Origin: Candidatus Binataceae bacterium
Lineage (GTDB): Bacteria; Desulfobacterota; Binatia; Binatales; Binataceae
Reading direction: 5' to 3'
Length of the DNA: 64,000 nt
Assembly: GCA_963722605.1 (NCBI GenBank)
Contig: CAVRNO010000004.1
Coordinates: 538,335-602,334 of the forward strand
Part shown: positions 10,213-32,043 of the stretch, piece by piece
Layout: each line of letters begins with the position of its first letter
Numbering within the stretch: position 1 is the first letter of the stretch
Notes under the pieces: generated by a model
Seen by the model: only the letters and a program-made list of their open reading frames with translations
Told to the model about the DNA's origin: nothing
The model's database searches: none
Position numbers and translations under genes: made by a program

Positions 10213-12873
10213 ATGAGCAAAGATTACATCATAGTTTGCGCCCCGGCAGGCACATCTCTTACTGAAGCAGTAAACAAGATACGCGACGCCCTGGGCGGAA
10301 CGCCCGCCGTGGAAACTGCGGACGTCGAATGGGAACTCCGCCATCTCTCCGCAACGCCCGCCGACCTGCTAAAGGCGGGGCGGAAGGTCGAGTCTAACAA
10401 GATAACAATGCACGATGTCACATTCTACCTGCCTCGCGAGAATGTCATCAACCTAGCAAACATGGGATTACTCAATGCACTGAAGAAACTTGCGGATTCA
10501 GATAAGCCTACTCTGGTCCTATCGTGTCATCTCACCTATTTCGGGAGTAAACGCTTTGAGTTTTATACCGGGATAGACCCAACGCTTCTTTCCGCACAGC
10601 TAAAACCAACGCGCCTTCTGTTGCTCATCGACGATATCTATGACATGTATATGCGTTTGAGCACCAATGTCGAACCCTTCTTTAGTTTAGAGAGCGCGAT
10701 GCGTTCTACTCTTGCGACTATTCAAAAAGAGGAGGAGATAGAGCTAGACAAACTAGAAGACGAGGACTTGATAACTCTTTGTCTTGCCGAGAAGCTTGGG
10801 ATGATGACACATTTGCTTTCGTGGAGACATCTTGAGACGGTCGTCGCTGAAGGTGTAGCTCGCCAGATCGGCTGTCCGTTCATGGTGTATGGTACGAAGC
10901 AAGCAATTGCGGCTGCAGCCAGCTGGTTGAGGAGCCTTCAACCGATTCAAGTGTACGCATCGCATCCTATCTCTAGAGTGCGTCGAGAATTTCGAAAAAG
11001 CGGTGATTGGGGAGAGCTCCCAGAACAAATCTTTCGCTTCCAGCGTCTTTTATTGAAAGATAATGTCGTCGTCCTGATGCCGACAGCAATTGATGAACGG
11101 CGTATCAAGCGTGGAGACGGCGGGCCGCTGCAGCGCATGCACGTAGAACTAGAGGCGCGCTGGCCATCTCCCAAACAGGCGGAGGCCTCGTTACTTCTCT
11201 ATACGCCTCCACCCGGGGATAACGACTGGGAACACACCAGGATACTTCGCTACGAAACTTGGGACCGCAAAAGAAAACTTCTTCAACCGGTCGGCACCAC
11301 GACGGTGAAAGTCGACCAGAAAGCAAATGTACTCTTACGAGAGTTTGAACGGCAATGCGAGAGAGCACTCGCGTCTAGAGACTATTTGCTCGTCTCTACA
11401 GCCAGGACCATCGTGGTATTTCGCCCTTTCATGGAAGTGCCTTCAGAACCGCGCGAAGGATTGTCTCGGGCGCTTAGTCAAGAGCTGGGACTCTGGGAGC
11501 TGATCGCCAAGTCGCATCCACCCCAAAAAGATAGTGATTTGACCGCTACTCCGAAGGCGTTATTCATTCATTTTAAGAAAGACGTCGACAGCTGGCGAGA
11601 GTACTATAATTCGGGCGAGCCACGGTCTGTCAGATTATATCAAGAGAGGGAAAGAGTCGTTGAACTGATCGCGGAGCCTCACTCTTGGACGTTAAAGCTC
11701 GCTCGGGAACTCCTGGAAGGTTTGGAGGAACGCAAGGAGAATTACTTCTCAGAAGGAAGTGTGCCGAAGTCGAAAGCCGACCAAGTACGACGGGAGTTGC
11801 CGACGCTTGTGGCGCAGGCGCACGAGGAATGGGAGAACTATCAACTTACCGGTGCGGTCCTCAAGTATTTCCGCTTGACACCGACAGACGAGGTGTTCGT
11901 TCAACGCGAACAAGTTCATCTTATCGTTGCAAAAGATATGGACGAGGTGGAACAAAGACAGCGCGAGATTACAGATTTTCTCGCCAGCGGCCTTAAACCG
12001 CCGCCGCTTGGAATCCTCGCACTTAAGGCTCTCCAGTCCTTCGGCGATACCGTCTCTCTGAAAACGACGCGAATCGTTCGCAACTACTACCGTTATTCCC
12101 CGGAAGCTCGGGAAACGCTCAGGTATTGGCGAAATCAGATAGAGAATCCTCTTCGAGACAAGAAGATACCCTGTACCAATTTCCTAATGTGGGGTGAGTC
12201 CGCCTGGGGGAAAACCTCTTTCATCGAGGAGATCGCAGAGGACCTGAAGGTGCTCGGCGTCAAGTCGAAGATTCTCAATGTCGCAAACTTAAAAAACAAG
12301 GAGGTTGACCTCAAACAAGAGCTCGCCGAGATCGACGCGACACCCGAGCCGATAATATGTTTAATTGATGAGATAACCACACCTCGCGCCGAATGGCCGT
12401 TGAACACATTGTTTCCCTTCCTACTTCCGTCCAAGCAATATCCTCACCGTCGGGTCGTCTTCGTAGTGGCAGGCAGCCGCGGTAAAAGTCTTGAAGAGCT
12501 TACGGGAGAAATTAAGGAGCTTTGCCCCAAGCAGCCGAGCGACCTGTTAAATCGCACCCCATATCAATTTGGCTTTCCTCAACCTCAACTCGAAGACTCT
12601 GTTTTGATTTTCACTTCGAAGGTCAAGTTGGCCTTTCCGAGTGTCGACCGAATCGAGAGAGCTTGTCTATTGTATGTGCTTACGGAAAAGCGGACTGGTC
12701 ATCTAATACACGCTTTGGTGCTCGGCCTTGAGTCTAAACTGTCACCTGCGCCGACAACTGTTCATTTGGACGACGTGCTTCCGGTCGCAAGTCCCGATCG
12801 TCTTAAATTTCTATCTCAATACCGGAGCCAGATTGATCAACTCTCTGACAGCTGCGTCCAGATTGAATCGTAA
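10213..12873 (+). CDS. Large uncharacterised protein (886 aa) with a C-terminal P-loop NTPase domain
   Basis: Uninterrupted ORF. Walker A LMWGESAWGKTSF and Walker B PIICLIDEITTP lie near residues 650-720; no motif was recognised in the ~600-aa N-terminal region. It sits immediately upstream of the integrase. Confidence 0.6.
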   Translation: MSKDYIIVCAPAGTSLTEAVNKIRDALGGTPAVETADVEWELRHLSATPADLLKAGRKVESNKITMHDVTFYLPRENVINLANMGLLNALKKLADSDKPTLVLSCHLTYFGSKRFEFYTGIDPTLLSAQLKPTRLLLLIDDIYDMYMRLSTNVEPFFSLESAMRSTLATIQKEEEIELDKLEDEDLITLCLAEKLGMMTHLLSWRHLETVVAEGVARQIGCPFMVYGTKQAIAAAASWLRSLQPIQVYASHPISRVRREFRKSGDWGELPEQIFRFQRLLLKDNVVVLMPTAIDERRIKRGDGGPLQRMHVELEARWPSPKQAEASLLLYTPPPGDNDWEHTRILRYETWDRKRKLLQPVGTTTVKVDQKANVLLREFERQCERALASRDYLLVSTARTIVVFRPFMEVPSEPREGLSRALSQELGLWELIAKSHPPQKDSDLTATPKALFIHFKKDVDSWREYYNSGEPRSVRLYQERERVVELIAEPHSWTLKLARELLEGLEERKENYFSEGSVPKSKADQVRRELPTLVAQAHEEWENYQLTGAVLKYFRLTPTDEVFVQREQVHLIVAKDMDEVEQRQREITDFLASGLKPPPLGILALKALQSFGDTVSLKTTRIVRNYYRYSPEARETLRYWRNQIENPLRDKKIPCTNFLMWGESAWGKTSFIEEIAEDLKVLGVKSKILNVANLKNKEVDLKQELAEIDATPEPIICLIDEITTPRAEWPLNTLFPFLLPSKQYPHRRVVFVVAGSRGKSLEELTGEIKELCPKQPSDLLNRTPYQFGFPQPQLEDSVLIFTSKVKLAFPSVDRIERACLLYVLTEKRTGHLIHALVLGLESKLSPAPTTVHLDDVLPVASPDRLKFLSQYRSQIDQLSDSCVQIES

Positions 12874-12908: not shown

Positions 12909-13979
12909 TTGTCACAAGATGCTACAATTAGTCTGAGACATAATCGCCCTTATGTTGCAGACAACCGGTCTGGAGCGGGGGGAGCGGTTCCGAAATACAT
13001 GGCCAATCGTGATCTCGTTCCCGCAGATAATCAGCAACATAATGTTCCGAAGCTCCTTTCGGAAGGCAAACACAGTCTCCGGGCGCTCGCTCGCGCGTAC
13101 TTCGTAACCGAGGTTGCCGGCCAGGCACCATCGACGATCGACGCGAAGCGACGCGACCTCACACGATTCTTTCTCTTCTACGCAAAACTTTACGGCCACG
13201 ATCATCCGGAGGAGTGGTACGCATCCGTCACGCGCGAATTCTTGCGACAGACCGCACGCGAGGGAGTTGCGGAAGCGACCCTCGCGCGCACGTATGCAAG
13301 CGTCCGGCATTTCGCGCGATGGATTCATTTCAAAGTCCAGGCATTTCCGCTCGGCTGCCCAACGGACGGCGTCAGGCCTCCTCGCGAACCTGAGCCGCAA
13401 TGGAAGGGACTCTCGCGGGCCGATGAACTCAGGCTCCTCGCAGCCGCCCAGACCCTTCGCATCCGACCAGGGCGGGGGACGAACCAAGGATTGCGAGACC
13501 ACGCCGCGATTGCCGTGCTCTTGGGCTCTGGGCTCCGCGTCTCCGAACTCTTGAATCTCAACTGCGGCCAATACACCGGCCGAGGGTTTCAAAAGCTTCT
13601 CGCCAAAGGCGGACGCATTCGCGATTTCGTTCCGGTGAAGAACGACGCGCGCCAAGTGCTGGAGGAATGGCTCGCCGTCCGCGCCGGCGCACCGGCAGAC
13701 CCAATTTTTCCCACGCGGACCGGAGCTCGCCTATCACGAATGCAATTTTTCAAGGCGCTGCGGCGAGTCGCCGATCAAGCGAACGCGCATCGGAAAGACG
13801 GGGAGCGCCTCACGGTCTCGCCGCACGTGCTTCGGCACACGTTTCTCCGAAAGCTCGCTGAAGAGAAGGGCGTGCAGTACGCGAAGGAAGCGTCCGGTCA
13901 CCGGAGCGACCGCTACATCTGGCGATACGTGAAACCGAATCACGACAGCTTGGCTGACGCGATCGATTCACTGGATTAG
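12909..13979 (+). CDS. Tyrosine recombinase / phage-type integrase
   Basis: Catalytic-region motifs: GSGLRVSELLNLN (R box), HVLRHTFLRKL (H-x-x-R) and SGHRSDRYIWRYV (catalytic Tyr region). An alternative start at 12999 is possible. Confidence 0.85.
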   Translation: MSQDATISLRHNRPYVADNRSGAGGAVPKYMANRDLVPADNQQHNVPKLLSEGKHSLRALARAYFVTEVAGQAPSTIDAKRRDLTRFFLFYAKLYGHDHPEEWYASVTREFLRQTAREGVAEATLARTYASVRHFARWIHFKVQAFPLGCPTDGVRPPREPEPQWKGLSRADELRLLAAAQTLRIRPGRGTNQGLRDHAAIAVLLGSGLRVSELLNLNCGQYTGRGFQKLLAKGGRIRDFVPVKNDARQVLEEWLAVRAGAPADPIFPTRTGARLSRMQFFKALRRVADQANAHRKDGERLTVSPHVLRHTFLRKLAEEKGVQYAKEASGHRSDRYIWRYVKPNHDSLADAIDSLD

Positions 13980-17019: not shown

Positions 17020-18282
17020 CTAGTTACGCAGAATACGCTCGATGTCGGTTTGGATCTCGGTCTTTGGTTTTCCGGTGTTGGCCATTGCCCAGGCGATTGC
17101 TTTGCGGGCCGGTAATTCGTCTCCGGCGGCTTCGGGCTTTTCAATGAGGGCTACGGGATCGCTCAAAATTGGCTGGTTGTCGTTCATGGTGAACGCGACG
17201 AATTGATAGTTGGGGAGCTTGACGAGCTGTTCGGCGATCTCCTTGTCGCCGAAGTTGATGCCGATTTTCTCGGAATCGTCTCCAGATACTCTGAACGAGA
17301 AGATGTGCGAGCAATTCCCAAACGCGATGCGGTCGTTGAAGATGCGGCGGCTCTCGTCGCGCATCTGCTGGGTCGTCTGCGTAGCGAACAAATAATGGAT
17401 GCCGAATTTTCTTGATTCCGCGAGCATGGATTCAAAGTCAATGCCGTCGGTGAAGTTGTGGATTTCGTCCACGATGACGAGGACGGGCTTGTTGCGGTGC
17501 TTCCGGCGGAACGAGGCGAGATTGATTTTCGAGAGGATGAGCGAGCCAAGGACTTTGGCTGGCCGCTCGCCGATGAGCCCTTTGGGAATCCGGCAAAGCA
17601 ATATCTTCTGTCGGTCGAGAATCGTTTGAAAGTTGAGCGAGCGCTTCTGCGCGAGGAATTCGACGAGTCCGGGGCGCATGAGTTCCTCGATTTTATTGAG
17701 CGGATGGGAGAAGTTGCGGGCGCGTTCTTGGGGCTTCAGGTCGCGGAAGTATTGCTGGTGAAAGTCCTGCACGAGCGGGTTGGCGGATTTTGAGAGGAGT
17801 GCATCCGCAAATTTGCCGCGTGCGAGGATTTTGTAGATATCTAAAACGGTGGGGTGTTCTTGAGTTTCGAGCACGGCATCCGTAGCGCCCCGGATGATAT
17901 GCGCGGTCTCCGGACCCCAGCCGCTTCCAGCGTGGGCTTCCATGAGGCTCATGAAGGCCTGCACAGCCTTTTCTCTGTCCGGATAATCGAAGATGCCAAG
18001 GTCGGGAGCGCGGTCGTTTTCCGGGTTGATATAGACGATGTCCTTAAGGCGCGTTTGCGGGATGTAGTTGAAGATGTCGTAAATCAAATCGCCGTGAGGG
18101 TCTATCACGGCAACGCCGAAGTTATTGCGGATCGCCTCGACAATGATGTTGCGGAGAAGCGTCGATTTTCCTGTGCCGGACTTTCCGAGAAGCCAGCCGT
18201 GGCGGAATTGGCGGCGATCGAGATCAATCGAGAAGTATTTTTGTCCGCCGGAAGTATGGGTGAGGCCGATAGGAATGTTCAT
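17020..18282 (-). CDS. Type IV coupling-protein-like P-loop ATPase (TraD/TrwB/VirD4 family), soluble form
   Basis: LLGKSGTGKSTLLRNIIVEAIRNNFGVAVIDPHGDL (Walker A plus the hhDPxGd motif of T4CPs) and Walker B VLVIVDEIHNF. No N-terminal TM segment. Start at 18282 (MNIPIGL). Confidence 0.55.
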   Translation of the reverse strand: MNIPIGLTHTSGGQKYFSIDLDRRQFRHGWLLGKSGTGKSTLLRNIIVEAIRNNFGVAVIDPHGDLIYDIFNYIPQTRLKDIVYINPENDRAPDLGIFDYPDREKAVQAFMSLMEAHAGSGWGPETAHIIRGATDAVLETQEHPTVLDIYKILARGKFADALLSKSANPLVQDFHQQYFRDLKPQERARNFSHPLNKIEELMRPGLVEFLAQKRSLNFQTILDRQKILLCRIPKGLIGERPAKVLGSLILSKINLASFRRKHRNKPVLVIVDEIHNFTDGIDFESMLAESRKFGIHYLFATQTTQQMRDESRRIFNDRIAFGNCSHIFSFRVSGDDSEKIGINFGDKEIAEQLVKLPNYQFVAFTMNDNQPILSDPVALIEKPEAAGDELPARKAIAWAMANTGKPKTEIQTDIERILRN

Positions 18283-18375
18283 GTAAGAATCCCACCGTCC
18301 TCGCCCCTCGCGCGACCCATGCCATATGCGCGGGGGCAAGAAGGATGAGCGTCCCGCTCTTTCGAGCGATTAGTT

Positions 18376-19207
18376 TCAGTATAGCGAAAGAAGTGAATAT
18401 GTGTTGTGCGAATCGTCTTTTGGAGTCTCGAAAACAGGTCCGCTGATATCAGACTTGTAAAGCTCTTCAGTGGTCAGCCAAAACATCCGGTGGTTTAGCT
18501 TGTCGCGCAATACTTTTAAGAGGTTCTGACGCCGGGTGTCGTTGGTCTGTACGACAATGACGCGGAATTTGTTGAAACCCCAATCGTTAAGGCATTCGTC
18601 GGTGTCGTAGTATTCGGCATATCTTGCCAGCTTCCTGATGATGTTCGGTTCGCCGTCGATGTATTTGCTGTTCTTCGACTTCTCGATTTCGAGGAAGAAT
18701 CGCGTCTCGCCCTGTTCCTTGGTCAGTTTAAGGAGGGCGTCGGGGTGAATACCGCGCTTCAAGTCGGACTGCTGCCAGTAAGGTTCAAAGCCTTGAGTTT
18801 CGGCGAACTTTCTCGTAGCGATGTGGAAAAAACTGATTTCGAGCTCGTGGTCGAGAGTACGTCGAGAGTGTTCATCGAACGTCTTGCCGCCGAACTCGGC
18901 AACGGCTTTGTCCGATAGGCCATAGACGTAACCGATGCCTCCTTTCTCGCGGCCGAGTTCGAAGTAGGGGAGGCGGTTCGCCCATCCGTCGTTAAACAGC
19001 TTGAGGAGCGTGAGACGGGCGCGGAGCTGATTCGGCGGGAGTAGGTTCGCCGTCTGAAAGCAATGCGGCTACGTCCTGGGGCCGGAGGCAGAAGTATTCA
19101 GCGAGGAGGCTTAGGACGCTTCTCTTTGTGCGGGTTCGGGGGCTGAGTAGTAGGTTCGTCCGGCGGCCCGCCGTCGAGATCCTTCGTTTTGCTAGAACTT
19201 GAGGCAT
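18376..19207 (-). pseudogene. Replication-relaxation (Replic_Relax) family gene with one apparent frameshift
   Basis: The N-terminal wHTH (MPQVLAKRR...RSVLSLLAEYFCLRPQDVAALLSDGEP) is in one frame. The rest (NQLRARLTLLKLFNDGWANRLPYFEL...LDHELEISFFHIATRKFAE...RFFLEIEKS...FRVIVVQTNDTRRQNL) is in another. Removing one C from the CCC in the minus-strand GAACCTACTCCCGCC (forward GGG run at 19037-19039) yields a continuous ...GEPTPPNQLRARL... reading frame. Confidence 0.5.
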
Positions 19208-20690
19208 TACTGTTAGTATAACATGCTCTGTCCATCGGTTCGGCTTTGTACTGGTGGTCTGTGACGCGGTCAATGATTTCTGCGCAACTGGCTGGATTGT
19301 GCTTATCGTACGGTGGTGGAGTGGGAATGGTGCGGCATATTCGGTGAGGAATAGAGAGATAGAGACATTGCCCTTTGGGCATGTGTAGAAGTTCTTTTTG
19401 ATAGTCGGCAGTGGAGAGAGATTGGTCTTTCGCAATCTCGCTTTCGAGGTGTGAGATTTTCTCCTCAAGGTCGTAAGCGCGGCCGTTGTATCTCATGTAT
19501 TCGTCTAATTTTCTGTCGTTGTAGGCTTCGCGTTCCCTTTTTTCCGCCATGGTTTGGCCCTTTTCTTTTTGGAGATAGGATTCGTTGGCTAGCCCCGCGA
19601 GTGTTTCGGCATCATGGAGCTCGGCTTGTAGCTGCTCAAGTTCGTAGGAGCGGTCCCTGGGGACGTGCGGCTGCGGGAAATAGGGTTTGAATCGGGCGGT
19701 GTCTTCGGGGTCACTGTTGAAGAGATAATAATTGTTGGTGTTTTTGAATGTGGCGGCCCATGTCGCTGAATCAATTTGGCTGGGGTATTGGGTAATGAGG
19801 GTGAGGTGTAACCCTAGTCCTCCGGCACGAGAGAGCATGTCGGGAAAATCCGAAGTCTGATAGAGATGAAACTCATCGGCATAGAGATGATGGTGCATAG
19901 GAATGGGTTTGCCGATAAATCGGTAAAAGTGCTGCCGGATTTTCGCCACAATGAGGCCGGCATAAATCTTCTGGGGCTCGGTAAGCCTGCCGATGTCTAC
20001 GAGAATAATTCGTTGTTGCCGGATTGCTTGGCTGATATTGAGTTTCGGATTAGGGCAATCGAACATGCGGTGGAGGATGTCGGATGTCATGAAGTCCGAT
20101 AGACGTGTCGTGAGATGGCGGAGATTTTCTCCGGTCGGAATGTTGTTTGGGTCCGCCCAATAATCTCGTAATTTCTGCTGGCGCAATCTGGAAATGATTT
20201 CGCGTTGTCGGACTTTATTGGTGAGGAAATAGTTGAGATCGAGGAATGTCGCGCGTTTCTCGGATGGGGTTTTGGGGTTGTCGTTGTAGTCGAGGAATGC
20301 GCTCACGATCCAATCGGCATTGGCTTTGATGATGGGCATCGATACGGTGTTGGCCGTCTTTAAGAGAAGGAACTTAATCTCGGCGACCACTTCGTCTTTT
20401 TCGATATGTCGCTCCCATTCGTCTTGACCTTCCACGCTCATAAAGTCGATAGGAATCTGGCTTTTCATATCGAGGTAAATCACTCGGTGAGCGTGAGCGC
20501 GAGGAATCCATTGTTTGAGCTGCAGCACGAGCTCGGACTTGGCGTCGATGACGGTGACGCCACGCCCGCGATTGATGTCCGCGAGGATGCGATGGAACGC
20601 GAGAGTTGATTTACCGGATTGGGTTTTGCCCTGGATGTAGAGGTGTGGGTTTTGAGGGTCGTCCGCTAGGGCGTCTTCGTAATTAGCCAT
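19098..20690 (-). CDS. Second T4CP-like / FtsK-HerA-like P-loop ATPase
   Basis: YIQGKTQSGKSTLAFHRILADINRGRGVTVIDAKSEL (Walker A plus a DPxGE-like motif) and Walker B HLYADEFH; no TM segment. Start at 20690 (MANYED). Confidence 0.5.
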   Translation of the reverse strand: MANYEDALADDPQNPHLYIQGKTQSGKSTLAFHRILADINRGRGVTVIDAKSELVLQLKQWIPRAHAHRVIYLDMKSQIPIDFMSVEGQDEWERHIEKDEVVAEIKFLLLKTANTVSMPIIKANADWIVSAFLDYNDNPKTPSEKRATFLDLNYFLTNKVRQREIISRLRQQKLRDYWADPNNIPTGENLRHLTTRLSDFMTSDILHRMFDCPNPKLNISQAIRQQRIILVDIGRLTEPQKIYAGLIVAKIRQHFYRFIGKPIPMHHHLYADEFHLYQTSDFPDMLSRAGGLGLHLTLITQYPSQIDSATWAATFKNTNNYYLFNSDPEDTARFKPYFPQPHVPRDRSYELEQLQAELHDAETLAGLANESYLQKEKGQTMAEKREREAYNDRKLDEYMRYNGRAYDLEEKISHLESEIAKDQSLSTADYQKELLHMPKGQCLYLSIPHRICRTIPTPPPYDKHNPASCAEIIDRVTDHQYKAEPMDRACYTNSNASSSSKTKDLDGGPPDEPTTQPPNPHKEKRPKPPR

Positions 20691-20898
20691 CGTAGGGTAC
20701 GCCTTGGAGATGGAGGCGCGTGTAGTACAGGGCAAAGAGAAGAAATCCTATCGCGGCGAAAATATCGAGATAGGCAATGAAAAGGTGCAGGTGGAAATAT
20801 AAAAGGATACCGATGCCGATGAGAGTTGAGATGGTTGCGAGATAACAGAGTCCGGCGCGAACGAAGTATTCATCTTTCGGTTGTTTGGCCCAGTTCAT
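20683..20898 (-). CDS. Small membrane protein (71 aa, two predicted TM helices)
   Basis: Hydrophobic stretches LCYLATISTLIGIGILLYF and IFAAIGFLLFALYY; directly upstream of and overlapping the ATPase gene. Confidence 0.4.
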   Translation of the reverse strand: MNWAKQPKDEYFVRAGLCYLATISTLIGIGILLYFHLHLFIAYLDIFAAIGFLLFALYYTRLHLQGVPYDG

Positions 20899-22840: not shown

Positions 22841-23674
22841 ATGATCCCTGCTGATGCCGCGCCGCTGGCAATCGCGCTCCTCGGATTGATGCTCGGAATG
22901 CGCCACGCTACCGATCCCGATCACGTAATCGCCGTCACGACCATTCTGAGCCGCGAACGCCGCCTGGCCGTTGCCACCCGGATCGGTGTCGTATGGGGAC
23001 TCGGCCACACGCTGACCGTGCTGCTGGTGGGCGCCGCCATCATCGTTTTCAAAATTGCGATCCCGGTCCGGCTCGGACTGGCGATGGAATTCGCCGTCGC
23101 GGTCGTGCTGATTATGCTCGGCGTCGGCGCAGCGGCCAGCCTGGTTCGCAAAGCGGCGACTCGGATGCGCGCGAGTTCATCGCAACATGAGGGCCTGCTC
23201 GTCCATGCGCACGCTCACACCCATGGCGGCGCGGTGCATTTGCATTCGCACGTTCACGTTGATCCTCACGAAAATACCGGCGATGCGACGCATCACGATC
23301 ACCGCATCCCGGCCGGCCAATTGCCGCCGTTCGCCGCGCGCCGTCCGCTGCTCAGGTCATTCGCAGTGGGACTCGTCCATGGACTTGCCGGCAGCGCCGC
23401 GATTGCGTTGCTGGTCCTGAGCGCGATTCCGCAAGCACTCTGGGCGACGCTCTACCTCGCGATTTTCTGCGTCGGTACGATAATCGGAATGGGGCTCATC
23501 ACAACCGCAATCGCCACGCCGTTCATGATCGTGTCGCGGCGAGCGTCGCGGATCCACCAAATCCTCGTCACCGGCTCCGGGCTCCTGAGTTTCGGTTTTG
23601 GCCTGTTCCTCGCCTACCAGATAGGTATCGTTGACCATTTGTTCAGCGCCGCTCCCATCTGGATTCCGCAATAG
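22841..23674 (+). CDS. NiCoT-family nickel/cobalt transporter with a His-rich loop
   Basis: RHATDPDHVIAV (H-x4-DH NiCoT signature), GLGHTLTV, and a His-rich loop HAHAHTHGGAVHLHSHVHVDPHENTGDATHHDH. Confidence 0.6.
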   Translation: MIPADAAPLAIALLGLMLGMRHATDPDHVIAVTTILSRERRLAVATRIGVVWGLGHTLTVLLVGAAIIVFKIAIPVRLGLAMEFAVAVVLIMLGVGAAASLVRKAATRMRASSSQHEGLLVHAHAHTHGGAVHLHSHVHVDPHENTGDATHHDHRIPAGQLPPFAARRPLLRSFAVGLVHGLAGSAAIALLVLSAIPQALWATLYLAIFCVGTIIGMGLITTAIATPFMIVSRRASRIHQILVTGSGLLSFGFGLFLAYQIGIVDHLFSAAPIWIPQ

Positions 23675-23746
23675 CGGAGCGGGGGAGCGTCCCCCGTGAA
23701 ACCAGGCATCACGGTGATGGCCGGCCTACCACTCCCCGTTTCAGCT

Positions 23747-25114
23747 CTAGCGATGCCCCCCACCGCCGCCGCCAAGTCCACCGCCACCAGCGCCGCCGCC
23801 GTGCGGCTGCGCGAACGTCCGCAACTGCTGCGCATGCTGCCGCTCAAAGGATTGCGCCTGCTCGGCGTGCTGACGCTGTAGCTCCTGCAGGCGTGCTGAA
23901 TACTGTCGCTCGGCCGCCTGCTGCTGCTCTGAACGCTGGCGCTCGAGCGCCTGCGACTCCTGCTGTTGCCGACGCTGGAGTTCCGCCGCTTGCTTTTCAT
24001 GGGCTTCTTCTAGCGCGCGCGATTCCTGCTCGGCTTGGGCCTTCTCGCGTGCCTGTTGCTCTTCCTGAAGATGCCGGCTCTCCAGGTCCTGCGTCTCCTG
24101 CTCATGTTTTTGCTGAAGCGACCGCAGTTGCTCGGTGTGCTCGCGCTCGGCCTGCTGTTCTTGCTGGCCGCGTCTGCGCTCGAGGTCCAGCGACTTGACG
24201 TTTTGCTGATGCTGCAGCGCCACCCGTTGGTCGCCGTGTGCGCCTTGGACTGATCGAAGCATGGCGCCATTCCAATCGGGATGATGCTCCTGCGCCCATC
24301 TGGGATTTTTCACCGCCCACCAGTGGACATCGTGCCATACGTGTTTGTCGTCGTAATCGCCTTTCCAGTCGGGGTGATGCTGGCGCGCCCACGCCGGGTC
24401 GTGAGAATACCACCAGCTGTTGGTGTGCCAGACGTGTCTATCGTCGAAGTCACCATGCCAATGGGGATGATGCTCGCGCGCATAGTCGGGATGAAATCGA
24501 TACCACCATGGAGCGGGGTACCAGACGCCCCCATAATAGTCGCCCCACCATTCGGGATAGTTTTGCGACACCCAGGAAGGCTGCAGCAGCCACCACCACG
24601 ACGCTGGATACCACATCCCGTTCCAGGGAGAGCCCCACCATTCGGGATAGAGTCCGCCGAATGCGCCGGGATTGCGCCACCACCACCATCCGGCCGGATA
24701 CCAAACCCCCTGGTAGGGAGCGCCCCACCATTCGGGATGCTGCTCCGCTGCCCAAGCCGGCTGATACTGGTACCACCATGCGGCCGGGTACCACGCGCGC
24801 TGGTAAAAGTCGCCCCACCATTCCGGATGGTGTTCGCGGACCCAGGCGGGGTCGCTATCCCACCACCACCACGCGGGATGCCAGATGCGGCCTTCGTCGA
24901 AATCGCCCCACCATTCGGGATGATGCTGGGGCACCCAGGCTGGTTGGTTCTGCCACCACCATGCGGCATCGCGCCATACGTGTCCGCCATCGTACTCACC
25001 CCAGGCAGGCGCGGCAGGAAAGGGGGTTGGCCATGGTCTGTACTCTGCGAATGCGGGCGTCGCCAGCATCAGCAGAATCGTCGTTGTCGTCAGCAGATGC
25101 TTGATTCTGGTCAT
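23747..25114 (-). CDS. Secreted Trp-rich tandem-repeat protein with a Gln/Glu-rich coiled-coil region and a Gly-rich tail
   Basis: Signal peptide MTRIKHLLTTTTILLMLATPAFA. About 11 repeats of a ~25-aa unit (HHPEWWGDxDxxxVWHxxWWWxxxPAWxxE). Then ~150 aa of Q/E/R-rich heptad-like sequence, ending GGGAGGGGLGGGGGGHR. GGGGGTGG RBS before the ATG at 25114. Confidence 0.65.
   Translation of the reverse strand: MTRIKHLLTTTTILLMLATPAFAEYRPWPTPFPAAPAWGEYDGGHVWRDAAWWWQNQPAWVPQHHPEWWGDFDEGRIWHPAWWWWDSDPAWVREHHPEWWGDFYQRAWYPAAWWYQYQPAWAAEQHPEWWGAPYQGVWYPAGWWWWRNPGAFGGLYPEWWGSPWNGMWYPASWWWLLQPSWVSQNYPEWWGDYYGGVWYPAPWWYRFHPDYAREHHPHWHGDFDDRHVWHTNSWWYSHDPAWARQHHPDWKGDYDDKHVWHDVHWWAVKNPRWAQEHHPDWNGAMLRSVQGAHGDQRVALQHQQNVKSLDLERRRGQQEQQAEREHTEQLRSLQQKHEQETQDLESRHLQEEQQAREKAQAEQESRALEEAHEKQAAELQRRQQQESQALERQRSEQQQAAERQYSARLQELQRQHAEQAQSFERQHAQQLRTFAQPHGGGAGGGGLGGGGGGHR
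24285..25010. repeat. ~75-bp tandem DNA repeats encoding the Trp-rich units
   Basis: Periodic recurrence of CCACCA(T/C)TCGGGATG...CCACCACCA motifs throughout the coding region. Confidence 0.6.
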
Positions 25115-25267
25115 CGATGCCACCCCCGGAATAATGGTCAGGTCAATCGCATCGCAAGCCAATCTACCTGGGCAAATCATTACTTAGTACATGATACGGA
25201 TTACGCCAACGGGCGGTTGCAAATCAGACCGGCTTCGATTTCATCGAAATAAAGTCCGGACCTCTGG

Positions 25268-26005: not shown

Positions 26006-26136
26006 GATGCATCCCTTTCGCGCAACCGGACCCGCGGTGTCAAGCCGGGCATTCCCGCCGCGCGATAAGCCAGGCCAGCATCAGGATCATCCCGCCGGCA
26101 AAGCGGTCCGTCGTCTGCCCGAGCAGCGCGGCGCAC

Positions 26137-28367: not shown

Positions 28368-28632
28368 TTGATTGCTTCTCCTTTTTCATTTCCCACGGAA
28401 CGCCGCACGGCGAACTGATCATATAAAAGCGCCATTCTTACGGCCAGCATCGCCGAGCCGCGGAATAAGCACCCGGCGGACCGGGCCACGGCCGCCGTTT
28501 CAGAACTCGCCAAGCATAGTCCGAAATCGGGCGACTCCCCTCTTTGCGGCAGAAATATTTGTAATCCGAGCTCTTGACTGAACCGGTCTCGATCTTTAAT
28601 CTAGCGACCCTATCGACTAAATTGTCGATAAG

Positions 28633-29502: not shown

Positions 29503-30994
29503 ATGAGAAAATGCACTTTGCCGATTCTGCCAGTTCTGCTGGCGGCGGTAATTGCCGGGGTGTTTATTCCCGCCGCGCGGGCGCATGCGCAGTCGAAGCT
29601 TTCCGCCGATCCGAAGGATCAGGAAATCCAACTGCTCAAGACAGAGATCAAGCAACTCGAGCAGAGGGTCGATACGCTGGAAGGGCTTGATCAGAAAGTG
29701 AAAGTGATCGACCGCAAGCTTGAGGTTCAGGCCGAGACCCAGAGGGATCAGGCCGCCACCGAGCAGAAAAAGTTCCTCGAGATGCCAATTGTCAAGGCGG
29801 GCGACGAGGGATTCTCGCTCTCTTCGCCCAACCACGACTACAACATAAATTTCGGCGGGATCATCCAGGGCGATGGCCGCTTCTTCACCAGCGGCGCGGA
29901 CAAGAACGTCAGCAGCACGTTTTACCTCAACCGAGTGCGCCCGATTATCACCGGCTCGCTTGCGAAGTACTACAACTTCAACATCACACCCGACTTCGGC
30001 CAGGGCAAGGTCGTGCTGCAAGACGCCTACCTCAATAACACCTATTTCGATTTTGCCAGCCTGAGGGCCGGGAAGTTCAAAGCGCCGCTGGATCTCGAGC
30101 GCCTGCAGTCGGATCGCGACCTGGAGTTCAGCGAGCGATCGCAGATTCAGAACCTGGTCCCGAACCGCGACACTGGTCTCGACCTGCACGGCAAACTTCT
30201 GGACGGTCTCGTCTTCTATGACGCCGCGTTGATGAACGGAGTGCCGAACAACACCGCGTCGGATACGGTGGACCTCGACAACAACGACGGCAAGGATTTC
30301 GTCGGCCGCGTTTTCACCACGCCGTTCACGCTAAGCGAAAACCAATGGCTCAAGGGACTGGGCTTCGGTTTCGCCGGTTCCTATGGCGACGAGCGCGGCG
30401 CCACCACCTCGGCCTACAAGACGTATGGCGCGAGCACCTGGTTCTCGTACAACAAGGGCGTGACCGCGTCCGGCCTGCGCGCGCGTCTCGAGCCGCAAGC
30501 CTACTACTACGCGGGCCCCTTCGGATTGATGGCCGCGTACGCGCAGGACGAGCACTCGCTGAACCTGTTCACCAGCGCCGGGAAGACCCCGTTCGTCAAG
30601 CCCATCAACCGGACCGATACCTTCACCGACACCGGCTATTTCGCGCAGGCTTCCTACTATCTGACCGGAGAAAATGTCCTCTTACGGCTGGGTCAAGCCA
30701 TCTCGCCCCTTCGACCCGCGCAACGGAGCGTGGGGCGCATGGGAGTTGGCGGCCAGAATCAGCAACGTCGCCGCGCAAACTCGCCAGTTCCAGCTCGGGT
30801 TCGCCAATCCGAGCGTGTCCGCGAAAACCGCCACCGAGTTCGCGCTCGGCGTCAACTGGTACCTGACCAGCAACATCAAGTGGTATTTCGACTACGCGAA
30901 CACCTTCTTCGACGGAGGCGCCGGCACGACCGCCGCGCCCAAGGACCGGCCGAACGAAAGCGTGTTCGAGTCGGAACTGCAAATCTCTTTCTAA
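29503..30994 (+). CDS. OprO/OprP-family anion-selective porin, joinable across a 1-nt shift near 30671-30674
   Basis: Signal peptide, then ...[27 protein letters not shown].. The C-terminal part ([29 protein letters not shown]...ELQISF) is in the +1 frame. Reading the A4 run as A3 gives ...TGEMSSYGW.... Confidence 0.7.
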
Positions 30995-32043
30995 TGAAAC
31001 TGGTGCAAGGAATGTCCGGTCGAAAATCCAAATTTACCGTGACGCTCGCTGCCGTCACTTTGGCGGCGAGCGTTGTTCTCGGCGTGGGCATCGCGCGCGC
31101 AGCCCAGGTCACACTCCTCAACGTCTCGTACGATCCGACCCGCGGACTTTACGAATCGATCAACGCACGGTTCGCGAAGGATTGGAAAGCGAAGACGGGC
31201 GACGACGTCACCGTCAACCAATCGCACGGCGGCTCGGGCAAGCAGGCGCGCGCGGTAATCGACGGCCTGGAGGCCGACGTGGTGACGCTCGGCCTGGCCG
31301 GCGATATCGACGCGATCGCCGAGAAGGCGAGCCTGCTGCCGTCGAACTGGCAATCGCGCCTGCCCGACAACAGTTGTCCCTACACTTCAACCATCGTGCT
31401 GCTGGTGCGCAAGGGAAATCCGAGAAAGATCCACGATTGGGATGACCTGGTGAAACCGGGCATCTCGGTGATCACGCCGAATCCGAAGACCTCGGGCGGC
31501 GCGCGATGGAATTTTCTGGCGGCGTGGGGGTACGCGCTCAAGCGCAACGGCGGCGACGAGGCGAAGGCGGCGGCGTTCGTCCGCGCGCTTTACAAAAACG
31601 TGCCGGTGCTCGATTCCGGAGCGCGCGGCTCGACCACTACTTTCGTCGAGCGCGAAATCGGCGACGTGCTGATCGGGTGGGAAAACGAGGCGCAGATGGC
31701 GATCAAGCAATTTGGCGCCGACAAGTTCGAGCTCGTCTATCCGTCGGTAAGCATCCTGGCCGAACCTCCGGTCGCTTGGGTGGACAAGGTTGACGGCCGT
31801 CACGGCACGGCCGCGGCTGCGAAGGCGTATCTGGAATTTCTGTACACGCCCGCGGGCCAGGAAATAATCGCGCAGAATTTCTTCCGTCCGCGCGACAAGG
31901 CCGTCGCCGCGAAGTATGCGAGCCAATTTCCGGGCATCAGCCTGCTCACGATCGATTCGGATTTCGGCGGATGGAAAAAGGCGCAGCCCAGGTTTTTCGG
32001 CGACGGCGGCGTATTCGACAGGATCTATCAACCGGGAAGCTAG
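30994..32043 (+). CDS. cysP: Sulfate/thiosulfate ABC transporter substrate-binding protein
   Basis: Signal peptide plus the conserved Sbp/CysP core ([13 protein letters not shown]...[12 protein letters not shown]...[16 protein letters not shown]). ATG at 30994 overlaps the porin stop (TAATG). Confidence 0.85.

What the first reader, a model, noticed from the sequence alone, without database searches (positions are those of the whole stretch)
23747..25114. Secreted protein built from ~11 tandem Trp-rich 25-aa repeats plus a Q/E-rich coiled coil and a poly-Gly tail
After a signal peptide, the protein repeats a motif of the form HHPEWWGDxDxxxVWHxxWWWxxxPAWxxE about eleven times, with 4-6 Trp per unit encoded by ~75-bp DNA repeats. 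It then switches to ~150 aa of Gln/Glu/Arg-rich heptad-like sequence and ends GGGAGGGGLGGGGGGHR. I know of no characterised family with this architecture. Trp-rich repeats suggest glycan or membrane-surface binding or a cell-surface adhesin. The tandem DNA repeats also make the gene a candidate for length variation.
Basis: seen in the sequence. Interest (0 to 1): 0.7.

Follow-up and report, generated by a model that had tools for sequence, protein, structure and literature searches.

The report
Tryptophan-core repeat protein with helical stalk
This gene from an uncultured soil bacterium (Binataceae) encodes a real, conserved, exported protein of an unannotated family: eight tryptophan-packed repeats predicted to form a fold unlike any solved structure, joined to a roughly 21-nm helix with an 11-residue histidine pattern; its function is unknown.

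Summary
The ORF (minus strand, 23747-25114, 455 aa) is real and under purifying selection.
- The repeat is 30-31 aa (90-93 nt), not 25 aa.
- There are 8 units plus a 7-residue stub, not about 11.
- The Gln/Glu/Arg-rich region is a hendecad (11-residue) array with a periodic His, not heptad-like.
- The DNA repeats are only 43-70% identical, so they are neither a collapsed-repeat artefact nor slippage-prone.

The family is very rare (158 hits among 1.84 billion representative proteins). Full-length members occur essentially only in Binataceae MAGs (63 loci, 7-11 units). Two-unit relatives with His-rich tails occur in other soil bacteria. No neighbour gene is universally conserved.

The window's allele is a sharp divergence island: 70-76% DNA identity against 88-90% in the flanks. 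It also has a clean three-unit deletion relative to its closest relatives.

Function is inferred only. My best guess is an envelope head-and-stalk protein that binds divalent metals. A glycan or surface-binding role is the main rival.

The parts
25121..25127 (-). Shine-Dalgarno-like GGGGGTG, 6 nt upstream of the start codon
   Evidence: Sequence read. It supports the ATG at 25114 over the in-frame ATG at 25180, and homologues also begin M[TS]RIK.
25046..25114 (-). Sec-type signal peptide, aa 1-23 (MTRIKHLLTTTTILLMLATPAFA, predicted cleavage AFA|EY)
   Evidence: Read from sequence and conserved in the family alignments. There is no lipobox Cys and no twin-Arg motif. AF2 pLDDT is below 50 here. 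No dedicated predictor was run.
24287..25015 (-). Eight tandem Trp-rich units, aa 34-276. Unit boundaries in aa: 34-63, 64-94, 95-124, 125-154, 155-184, 185-214, 215-245, 246-276. Types are D, D, Y, Y, Y, Y, D, D.
   Evidence: AF2 predicts each unit as a beta-hairpin plus two helices, with pLDDT about 75-88. Composition is W 20.6%, W+Y+F 29.6%, L+I+V+M 6.2%.
24266..24286 (-). Terminal stub HHPDWNG (aa 277-283), the start of a ninth unit, which closes the solenoid
   Evidence: It is conserved as HHPEW[KQT] in homologues.
23819..24235 (-). Hendecad array predicted as one continuous alpha-helix (aa 294-432, about 13 hendecads, family consensus A-L-E-R-Q-H-x-x-Q-phi-Q)
   Evidence: Periodicity statistics, register profile, AF2 helix 294-432 with pLDDT 86-94. 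The region aligns across the family.
23750..23818 (-). Disordered Gly/His tail (aa 433-455, ...QPHGGGAGGGGLGGGGGGHR); the stop codon is at 23747-23749
   Evidence: AF2 pLDDT is below 50. The family tails are Gly/His/Pro-rich and mostly end in HH or HR.
23681..23695 (-). Small GC hairpin GGGGGA-cgc-TCCCCC in the 72-nt spacer between the convergent genes; a possible terminator
   Evidence: Sequence read. The consensus terminator scan did not flag it because there is no T-run. Its function is not shown.
23750..25000 (-). Divergence island: the mature-protein coding part is 70-76% identical to L003/L004 DNA, while both flanks are 88-90% identical
22841..23674 (+). Convergent neighbour: a NicO/NiCoT-like membrane transporter with the HX4DH motif (RHATDPDH) and a His-rich loop. 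It is context only and not shown to be a functional partner.
   Evidence: Pfam NicO scores 26.7 bits, just under the 27.7 cut-off. It is a neighbour in 24 of 63 loci.

Best explanation
Shown: the gene encodes a genuine exported protein of an uncultured Binatus-like bacterium (Binataceae). It belongs to an unannotated family restricted to that lineage.

The mature protein has three modules:
1. A rigid solenoid 'head' of eight 30/31-residue units. Each unit is a beta-hairpin followed by two short helices. The hydrophobic core must be built almost entirely from invariant Trp, because aliphatic residues are nearly absent.
2. A helix of about 140 residues (about 21 nm) made of about 13 hendecads. 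These place Leu, His and a semi-hydrophobic residue on one seam (positions 2, 6 and 10).
3. A disordered Gly/His tail.

Inferred: the seam lets the helix self-associate into an 11-residue-period coiled-coil stalk. The protein then sits in the cell envelope (periplasm by default) as a head-and-stalk scaffold. Its regularly spaced His and Asp residues bind divalent metal cations, which buffers or hands over metals outside the cytoplasm. The candidate ligand residues are His2, Asp8, Asp10 and His13 on each D-type hairpin, the His ladder on the stalk, and the Gly/His tail.

The architecture and fold are well supported. Metal binding is my best guess, not a demonstrated function.
For: Real and conserved:
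- 63 loci in Binataceae MAGs carry intact ORFs with the same three modules.
- dN/dS is 0.21-0.25.

Fold:
- AF2 pLDDT is about 75-88 in the repeats and 86-94 in the helix.
- Composition is W 20.6% against L+I+V+M 6.2%.
- Pro3, Trp5, Gly7, Trp15 and Trp21 are invariant across 260 D-type units.

Hendecads:
- Searches show position 2 at 76% hydrophobic, position 6 His and position 10 at 39% hydrophobic.

Metal hypothesis:
- The protein has 33 His, 7.3% of residues (P = 4e-9 against a 2.2% background).
- In D-type units His2 is 97% conserved, Asp8 86%, Asp10 99% and His13 76%.
- The same His, Asp and Glu positions are invariant in distant two-unit relatives.
- Those relatives often end in His-rich tails such as HGHDHDEH, HHHGHDND and HDNHGHGEGHH.
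- A NiCoT-type transporter gene with an HX4DH motif and a His-rich loop lies next door in 24 of 63 loci.
Against: - No metal-binding family or motif was matched by any library.
- The substitution patterns at the His positions also fit structural roles. Position 1 alternates Asn/His like a helix N-cap, position 13 His is replaced by Arg or Lys, and hendecad position 6 by Arg, Gln or Tyr.
- The central Y-type units have lost Asp10 and His13 and replaced them with aromatic residues.
- The transporter gene is convergent, so it is not co-transcribed, and it is a neighbour in only one clade. No neighbour is universal, and the short relatives sit among housekeeping genes.
- I could not inspect model coordinates to check the geometry of the proposed sites.
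- Localisation rests only on the signal peptide.
- The divergence island fits an exposed, biotically targeted protein somewhat better than a metal buffer.
Confidence: 0.35

Rival explanations
1. Glycan, cell-wall or surface-binding head-and-stalk protein, i.e. an adhesin or envelope tether. Exposed aromatic residues along the solenoid bind a periodic polymer (peptidoglycan, exopolysaccharide, plant or fungal glycans, or aromatic soil polymers). The coiled-coil stalk oligomerises and projects the head. This is essentially the first reader's idea.
For: - The architecture is that of a secreted, aromatic-rich tandem repeat with a long stalk.
- Unit number and stalk length vary between lineages: 7-11 units and a C-terminal region of 100-406 aa.
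- Some genomes hold 2-3 paralogues.
- The window allele is a sharp divergence island with a 3-unit indel. From general knowledge, that is typical of exposed proteins under diversifying selection.
Against: - There is no similarity to any carbohydrate-binding, choline-binding or adhesin family or fold.
- With only 6% aliphatic residues, most Trp are probably core and not exposed.
- No outer-membrane anchor, lipobox, secretion-system partner or glycan genes are conserved nearby.
- Overall dN/dS is 0.2, so positive selection is not demonstrated.
Confidence: 0.25
2. Purely structural envelope spacer or strut. A rigid Trp-core rod plus a coiled coil sets or senses a distance within the periplasm, analogous in role to Lpp, without binding a small ligand.
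For: - The continuous helix of about 21 nm is on the scale of periplasmic width (the comparison with periplasmic width is from general knowledge).
- The solenoid is rigid and regular.
- The gene stands alone among housekeeping genes.
- The family is conserved across Binataceae.
Against: - No lipobox, membrane anchor or peptidoglycan-binding domain is present at either end.
- C-terminal length varies four-fold within the family, which is hard to reconcile with a ruler.
- It does not explain the conserved His and Asp set.
Confidence: 0.15
3. Stress or desiccation-protective hydrophilin. The Q/E/R-rich 11-mer array acts like group-3 LEA, apolipoprotein or synuclein-type 11-mer amphipathic helices that coat membranes or proteins on drying in soil.
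For: - The 11-residue periodicity.
- The helix is highly hydrophilic: Q 27%, E 17%, R 13% and only 11.5% L+I+V+M+F.
- The tail is Gly-rich.
- The organisms come from soil and peat.
Against: - No LEA or apolipoprotein family is matched. Apolipoprotein A-I appears only at E = 0.23, driven by composition.
- The hydrophobic seam is one residue wide, not a broad amphipathic face.
- It does not explain the conserved, costly Trp solenoid.
Confidence: 0.07
4. Not a real gene: an assembly artefact of collapsed repeats, or a spurious ORF in GC-rich repetitive DNA.
For: - Long alternative-frame ORFs overlap the region on both strands.
- Many metagenomic homologues are frameshifted.
Against: - 63 independent genomes hold intact same-frame ORFs.
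- dN/dS is 0.2, with abundant synonymous change.
- DNA units are only 43-70% identical, so there is nothing that could collapse.
- The alternative frames yield only low-complexity strings such as SSRMVGR and IIPNGGA.
Confidence: 0.01

Closest known systems
Choline-binding / cell-wall-binding repeats (Pfam CW_binding_1) and the related glucan-binding YG repeats of Gram-positive surface proteins
   Same: Both are tandem, aromatic-rich, hairpin-containing units in exported proteins that stack into a superhelical solenoid. In the known families the ligand is bound between successive units by Trp and Tyr (from general knowledge).
   Different: Those units are about 20 aa and consist only of beta-hairpins. 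Here the units are 30-31 aa, made of a hairpin plus two helices, with 5-8 Trp each. There is no Pfam match and no structural match. The host lineage also differs: Binataceae, not Firmicutes.
Hendecad (11-residue) helical repeats: right-handed or straight coiled coils such as tetrabrachion, and 11-mer amphipathic repeats of apolipoprotein A-I, group-3 LEA proteins and alpha-synuclein
   Same: There is a clear 11-residue periodicity over about 140 residues, predicted as one uninterrupted helix.
   Different: The seam is Leu-His-phi with a periodic His (consensus A-L-E-R-Q-H-x-x-Q-phi-Q), and the sequence is very Gln-rich. No sequence relationship exists: apolipoprotein A-I scores E = 0.23 on composition, and the module finds only one same-family fragment among 5.8 billion clusters. 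Oligomeric state is unknown.
RcnB-type and other His-rich periplasmic metal-handling proteins encoded next to NicO/RcnA-family transporters
   Same: An exported, His-rich protein is encoded beside a NicO/NiCoT-like transporter that has a His-rich loop.
   Different: There is no homology to RcnB or any metal-binding family. The genes are convergent and not in an operon. The adjacency holds in only 24 of 63 loci. Metal binding is untested.
Trp ladders of thrombospondin type-1 repeats and cytokine-receptor WSXWS motifs
   Same: Stacked Trp are interleaved with conserved Arg or His. Here Arg or His is conserved at unit positions 16 and 30. The comparison with TSR is from general knowledge and the titles found.
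   Different: Those are eukaryotic, disulfide-bonded, single small domains, not a 30-aa tandem solenoid. No sequence or fold match was found.
Head-and-stalk envelope proteins (Braun's lipoprotein Lpp, trimeric autotransporter adhesins)
   Same: The overall logic is the same: an exported protein with a long helical stalk and a terminal repeat 'head'.
   Different: There is no lipobox Cys, no C-terminal beta-barrel anchor and no YadA-like domains. The stalk period is 11, not 7. Membership is not supported.

Membership tests
Any curated protein family (Pfam-A, NCBIfam, PHROGs, PADLOC) | Profile-HMM match at or near the curated threshold | tested here: not met
   There were no families at E <= 0.1 for the window protein in Pfam and NCBIfam. 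Nine relatives gave none above threshold in Pfam. PADLOC gave none, and PHROGs gave only a compositional tape-measure hit at E = 0.084.
Choline-binding / cell-wall-binding repeats (CW_binding_1) | A repeat of about 20 aa matching the GW..G.WYY-type profile, with an all-beta hairpin solenoid | tested here: not met
WW domain | A three-stranded sheet of about 35-40 aa with two Trp spaced 20-22 residues apart and a matching profile | tested here: not met
   No Pfam hit. The predicted unit is a two-stranded hairpin plus helices. No fold match.
   Hydrophobic autocorrelation at lag 7 is -0.15, and self-identity at lag 7 is at background (z = 1.2). Lag 11 has z = 4.7.
Hendecad coiled coil / 11-mer helical repeat | 11-residue periodicity in a continuous helix | tested here: met
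   Peaks at lags 11 and 22, His autocorrelation 0.33, the register profile and AF2 helix 294-432.
Hendecad coiled coil / 11-mer helical repeat | Self-association into a multi-helix bundle | not testable with these tools
   Only monomer prediction was available. The seam is narrow, using positions 2, 6 and 10 only, so a single stable helix cannot be excluded.
LEA group 3 / apolipoprotein-type amphipathic 11-mers | Sequence-family match and a broad apolar face | tested here: not met
   No Pfam hit. Apolipoprotein A-I scores E = 0.23. Only 11.5% of helix residues are L, I, V, M or F.
RcnB-like periplasmic partner of NicO/RcnA transporters | Homology to RcnB (Pfam RcnB) | tested here: not met
   No hit.
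RcnB-like periplasmic partner of NicO/RcnA transporters | Co-transcribed or consistently linked with the transporter gene | tested here: not met
   The orientation is convergent. Linkage holds in 24 of 63 loci only.
Metal-binding protein (generic) | Demonstrated or geometrically plausible metal site | not testable with these tools
   Conserved His2, Asp8, Asp10 and His13 and His-rich tails are suggestive.
Lipoprotein (Lpp-like) / trimeric autotransporter adhesin | Lipobox Cys after the signal peptide, or a C-terminal beta-barrel anchor | tested here: not met
   The mature protein contains no Cys, and the cleavage region is AFA|EY. The C-terminus is a disordered Gly tail. No YadA or autotransporter domains were found.
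Slipped-strand contingency locus | Near-identical tandem DNA units | tested here: not met
   Units in the window are 43-70% identical, with a longest exact word of 19 nt. The family-wide maximum is 86%.

The most novel reading that the evidence does not exclude
The solenoid is a new protein fold whose core is a continuous ladder of stacked Trp, Tyr and His running the whole length of the head (8-11 units). It would work as an extracytoplasmic aromatic 'wire' or sponge. That means either a hole-hopping electron conduit, or a binder of aromatic soil compounds or pigments, mounted on a metal- or pH-switchable His-ladder coiled coil.

Nothing here tests this. It is merely not excluded by 20.6% Trp, near-absence of aliphatic residues, strictly periodic invariant Trp, and the lack of any fold match.
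Probability: 0.04. Interest if true: 0.95.

Novelty: categorically new. Interest (0 to 1): 0.66.

Why it matters
If the model holds, this is a solenoid whose hydrophobic core is built from tryptophan instead of aliphatic residues. It has no relative in the PDB and no entry in Pfam or NCBIfam. That makes it a new repeat type for structural biology and protein design, and a strong intrinsic-fluorescence scaffold.

The periodic-His hendecad stalk would be a natural candidate for a pH- or metal-switchable coiled coil.

Biologically, it is a lineage marker for Binataceae, an abundant but uncultured soil and peat group. It is one of few leads to their envelope biology.

The sharp divergence island suggests the locus is subject to allele exchange or diversifying pressure. 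That would point to an interaction with the outside world.

The caveat is that function and localisation are entirely inferred.

Tried and rejected
- **Domain libraries.** Pfam, NCBIfam, PHROGs and PADLOC on the protein and on nine relatives gave nothing usable. The only hits were sub-threshold 'MHB haemophore' matches (17.7-19.9 bits against a 27.4 cut-off). They fall in a different N-terminal repeat of distant relatives, so I did not pursue them.
- **PDB sequence and profile searches.** These returned only compositional hits to the Q/E-rich tail.
- **Conserved operon partner.** I clustered all flanking ORFs of the 63 loci. No cluster occurs in more than 23 loci, and the top ones reflect clade synteny.
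- **Context of short relatives.** Four long contigs showed unrelated housekeeping neighbours. Contexts of P0001, P0013 and P0019 were likewise unrelated.
- **C-terminal module searched alone**, to find other domain partners. It found one same-family fragment only.
- **Literature.** No paper describes a bacterial Trp-rich solenoid of this kind, and the Binatota papers found are about metabolism.
- **Promoter and terminator scan.** It was at shuffle background.
- **tRNA and Rfam scans of the window.** Both were empty.
- **Second copy in the window.** None was found.
- **Elevated dS as an NG86 artefact of two-fold codons.** I rejected this after class-matched third-position counts.
- **A uniformly fast-evolving family.** I rejected this because most close genome pairs show target divergence about equal to neighbour divergence.
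Full report
**1. What is in the sequence**

The finding corresponds to one intact ORF on the minus strand, 23747-25114 (455 aa). An in-frame ATG at 25180 would add 22 residues. The start at 25114 is favoured for two reasons. A GGGGGTG element lies 6 nt upstream, and homologues begin M[TS]RIK.

The N-terminus (MTRIKHLLTTTTILLMLATPAFA|EY) has the charge, hydrophobic stretch and A-x-A layout of a Sec signal peptide. It has no lipobox Cys and no twin-Arg motif. This is read from the sequence, because no predictor was available.

Trp makes up 52 of 455 residues, all within aa 24-290 (P = 4e-29 at a 1.5% background).

**2. Corrections to the observation**

- Anchoring on [HY]P[EDH]W.G gives a period of 30-31 aa (90-93 nt). 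There are eight units (aa 34-276) plus a seven-residue stub, not about 11 units of 25 aa.
- Units carry 5-8 Trp each.
- Two unit types exist. D-type units (31 aa) read GD[FY]DxxHxW[HR]. Y-type units (30 aa) read GxxYQGxWYPA. Their order is DD-YYYY-DD.
- At the DNA level, units are 43-70% identical (mean 55%). The longest shared exact word is 19 nt, and TRF detects only 2.7 copies at 70%. A collapsed-repeat artefact and a slippage-prone locus are therefore both unlikely.
- The C-terminal Q/E/R-rich region is not heptad-like. Self-identity peaks at lags 11 and 22. In the window, lag 11 has z = 4.7 against shuffles and lag 7 has z = 1.2. Across 61 family members, His autocorrelation is 0.33 at lag 11. 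Hydrophobic autocorrelation is +0.19 at lag 11 and -0.15 at lag 7.
- Anchoring only on periodic His gives the hendecad consensus A-L-E-R-Q-H-x-x-Q-phi-Q. Position 2 is 76% hydrophobic and position 10 is 39% hydrophobic. Leu, His and phi therefore form one narrow seam with 4-4-3 spacing.

**3. Is it a known family?**

No.
- Pfam-A and NCBIfam give no family at E <= 0.1 for the protein. Pfam gives none above threshold for nine relatives.
- PADLOC and PHROGs give nothing meaningful.
- PDB sequence searches return only compositional hits to the tail, and a profile of distant relatives returns none.

**4. Structure**

- AlphaFold2 on aa 1-298 with a 15-sequence alignment gave mean pLDDT 73 (about 75-88 in the repeats) and pTM 0.53. 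Each unit is predicted as a beta-hairpin followed by two short helices, stacked regularly.
- The full-length model reproduces this. It predicts aa 294-432 as a single uninterrupted helix (pLDDT 86-94, 139 residues, about 21 nm) and a disordered tail.
- The repeat region is 20.6% Trp and 29.6% Trp+Tyr+Phe, but only 6.2% Leu+Ile+Val+Met. The core must therefore be made largely of Trp.
- The AlphaFold-DB library was not available.
- The model is of moderate confidence and comes from a shallow alignment, so 'new fold' is a strong lead and not a demonstrated fact.

**5. Distribution**

- A word-indexed search of 5.8 billion protein clusters found only 20 relatives, the best 53% identical. Many are frameshifted into the other frames of the same repeat DNA, giving strings such as SSRMVGR and IIPNGGA.
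- An exhaustive profile search of 1.84 billion representatives found 158 proteins at E <= 1e-3 and 51 at E <= 1e-10.
- A scan of 185,579 species genomes found 63 loci. Essentially all are Binataceae, Candidatus Binatus, or 'uncultured delta proteobacterium' MAGs from soil and peat.
- Nearly all loci hold an intact ORF of about 460-775 aa with the same three modules.
- Unit number is 7-11, with modes at 11, 10 and 8. The order D..Y..D is conserved. The C-terminal region ranges from 100 to 406 aa, and tails are Gly/His/Pro-rich, mostly ending HH or HR.
- Several MAGs hold two or three paralogues. The window holds one.
- The flanking genes are about 90% identical in protein to Candidatus Binatus soli UBA7539 (L003). 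This places the window in that genus.

**6. Wider superfamily**

The weaker hits are secreted proteins from other soil bacteria. Some are about 100 aa with two D-type-like units. Others fuse such units to a different N-terminal repeat (FLxNHPxxAxxLxxNPxLLYDPxxRxxHPxLxxFL). They often carry Q/R-rich regions and His-rich tails such as HGHDHDEH and HHHGHDND.

In the short forms, Gly, Asp, His, Trp-Trp, Pro, Trp, His-His, Glu and Trp are invariant at the positions that are also conserved in D-type units. All of these proteins are annotated 'hypothetical'.

**7. Genomic context**

- In the window the gene is convergent with a NicO/NiCoT-like transporter. That protein has the HX4DH motif RHATDPDH and a His-rich loop, and scores 26.7 bits in Pfam against a 27.7 cut-off. 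A K+-channel-like gene lies upstream on the same strand.
- Across the 63 loci the transporter is a neighbour in 24 and the channel in 20. Pirin and P450 are neighbours only in the two closest genomes.
- Clustering all flanking ORFs shows no universal partner.
- Homologue contigs and short-relative contigs have unrelated housekeeping neighbours.
- The gene therefore looks like a stand-alone unit. The transporter adjacency is weak evidence for a functional link.

**8. Selection, and an unexpected divergence island**

- Against L003 and L004, the target has dN 0.22-0.23, dS 0.92-1.03 and dN/dS 0.21-0.25. The four flanking genes have dS 0.20-0.29.
- The excess holds with class-matched counts of third-position differences at identical residues. 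Four-fold sites differ at 0.40-0.46 against 0.17-0.23. Two-fold sites differ at 0.31-0.33 against 0.06-0.13.
- This is not a general property of the family. In most close genome pairs the target and the transporter gene diverge similarly, for example 0.10 against 0.09 for L003-L004.
- The window allele, in contrast, is about equally distant from every allele of the syntenic clade (amino-acid distance 0.32-0.38).
- Sliding-window DNA identity to L003 and L004 is 0.88-0.90 in the channel gene, the intergenic region, the signal-peptide codons and the transporter gene. It is 0.70-0.76 from about 25,000 to about 23,750, which is the mature protein.
- The alignment also shows a clean in-frame three-unit (about 93 aa) indel.
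- The simplest reading is import of a divergent allele by homologous recombination from an unsampled relative. Locally accelerated evolution or intragenic conversion is not excluded.
- From general knowledge, such islands are typical of exposed proteins under diversifying or frequency-dependent selection. Positive selection itself is not shown here.

**9. How it most likely works**

Shown or strongly supported: an exported protein with a Trp-core hairpin-helix-helix solenoid head, a long hendecad helix with a Leu-His-phi seam, and a disordered Gly/His tail. It is conserved under purifying selection in one bacterial family.

Inferred: the seam mediates self-association into an 11-residue-period coiled-coil stalk. 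The protein acts in the envelope as a head-and-stalk binding scaffold.

For the ligand I commit, at about 0.35, to divalent metal cations. The reasons are:
- His makes up 7.3% of residues.
- His2 (97%), Asp8 (86%), Asp10 (99%) and His13 (76%) are conserved on each D-type hairpin.
- The same residues are invariant in distant relatives, which also carry His-rich tails.
- His is periodic on the stalk.
- A NiCoT-type transporter gene lies next door in a third of loci.

Against this:
- His1 alternates with Asn, like a helix N-cap.
- His13 is replaced by Arg or Lys.
- The stalk His is replaced by Arg, Gln or Tyr.
- Y-type units have replaced the polar set with aromatic residues.
- The transporter gene is convergent and linked only in one clade.

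The divergence island and the length variation favour it. A ligand-free structural spacer (0.15) and a LEA-like hydrophilin (0.07) are less likely. An artefact is effectively excluded.

**10. Comparison with known systems**

The protein resembles choline-binding and glucan-binding repeats in logic: an aromatic hairpin solenoid in an exported protein. It resembles hendecad coiled coils and 11-mer amphipathic repeats in periodicity. It resembles RcnB/RcnA in gene adjacency, and Lpp or trimeric autotransporters in head-and-stalk layout. It fails the defining test of each family wherever a test was possible (see the membership table). The only 'met' feature is the 11-residue periodicity itself.

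**11. Novelty and verdict**

At the level of family and predicted fold, this has no known relative. The general architectural idea of a repeat head on a helical stalk is familiar.

I rate the novelty as categorically new, with three caveats:
- The fold rests on a moderate-confidence model.
- AFDB could not be searched.
- Function is unknown.

Interest is 0.66. A Trp-core solenoid and a periodic-His hendecad stalk would surprise structural biologists, and the divergence island adds an evolutionary angle. However, the organism is uncultured and no function is established.

Noticed in passing
window 23750-25000 (compared with L003 and L004): Sharp divergence island. DNA identity to the closest genomes is 0.70-0.76 inside the mature coding region but 0.88-0.90 in both flanks and in the signal-peptide codons. 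Synonymous divergence is 2-4 times that of the neighbours, and the window allele is equidistant from all alleles of the syntenic clade. This suggests import of a divergent allele or locally accelerated evolution.
   Followed up: yes
window 1-22750: This region has lower GC (52-58% against 60-65% elsewhere). It carries a tyrosine recombinase/integrase (12909-13979) and a TrwB/HerA-like ATPase (17020-18339), plus large ORFs with no Pfam match (10213-12873, 19098-20735). Synteny with L003 breaks at about 22,750. It is probably an integrated mobile element ending about 1 kb from the target locus. No tRNA gene is present in the window.
   Followed up: partly
window 29503-32043 (+): A single 846-aa ORF combines a phosphate-selective porin domain (Porin_O_P, aa 132-407) with a periplasmic solute-binding domain (SBP_bac_11, aa 555-795). 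This is either an unusual fusion or two genes read through in the ORF listing.
   Followed up: no
window 22841-23674 (+): The NicO/NiCoT-like transporter has the signature RHATDPDH (HX4DH) and a His-rich loop (HAHAHTHGGAVHLHSHVHVDPHENTGDATHHDH). It scores just under Pfam's cut-off (26.7 against 27.7 bits) and is 90% identical to its L003 orthologue.
   Followed up: partly
window 24100-25250, both strands; P0005-P0017: The repeat DNA produces long spurious ORFs in other frames on both strands, for example 24238-25104 (+), 24281-25252 (+) and 24310-24999 (-). Many metagenomic 'proteins' of the family switch into these frames, giving strings such as SSRMVGR and IIPNGGA. These are frameshifts in those assemblies, not real variants.
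   Followed up: yes
P0018, P0034, P0061, P0124, P0141, P0198, P0227 (distant relatives): A second unannotated repeat of about 40 aa (FLxNHPxxAxxLxxNPxLLYDPxxRxxHPxLxxFL) sits N-terminal to the Trp units in proteins from other soil bacteria, one of them labelled Candidatus Acidoferrales. The only Pfam signal is a sub-threshold 'MHB haemophore' hit.
   Followed up: partly
L004 8001-9389: In this close relative the orthologue ends prematurely within the hendecad region (462 aa, ending ...EGK). It lacks the last roughly 90 residues and the Gly/His tail. The cause may be a real truncation or a sequencing error.
   Followed up: no
L003 relative to window about 26063-26121 and about 28498-28541: L003 carries two insertions of roughly 1-2 kb relative to the window in otherwise about 90% identical flanking DNA. 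Their content was not examined.
   Followed up: no
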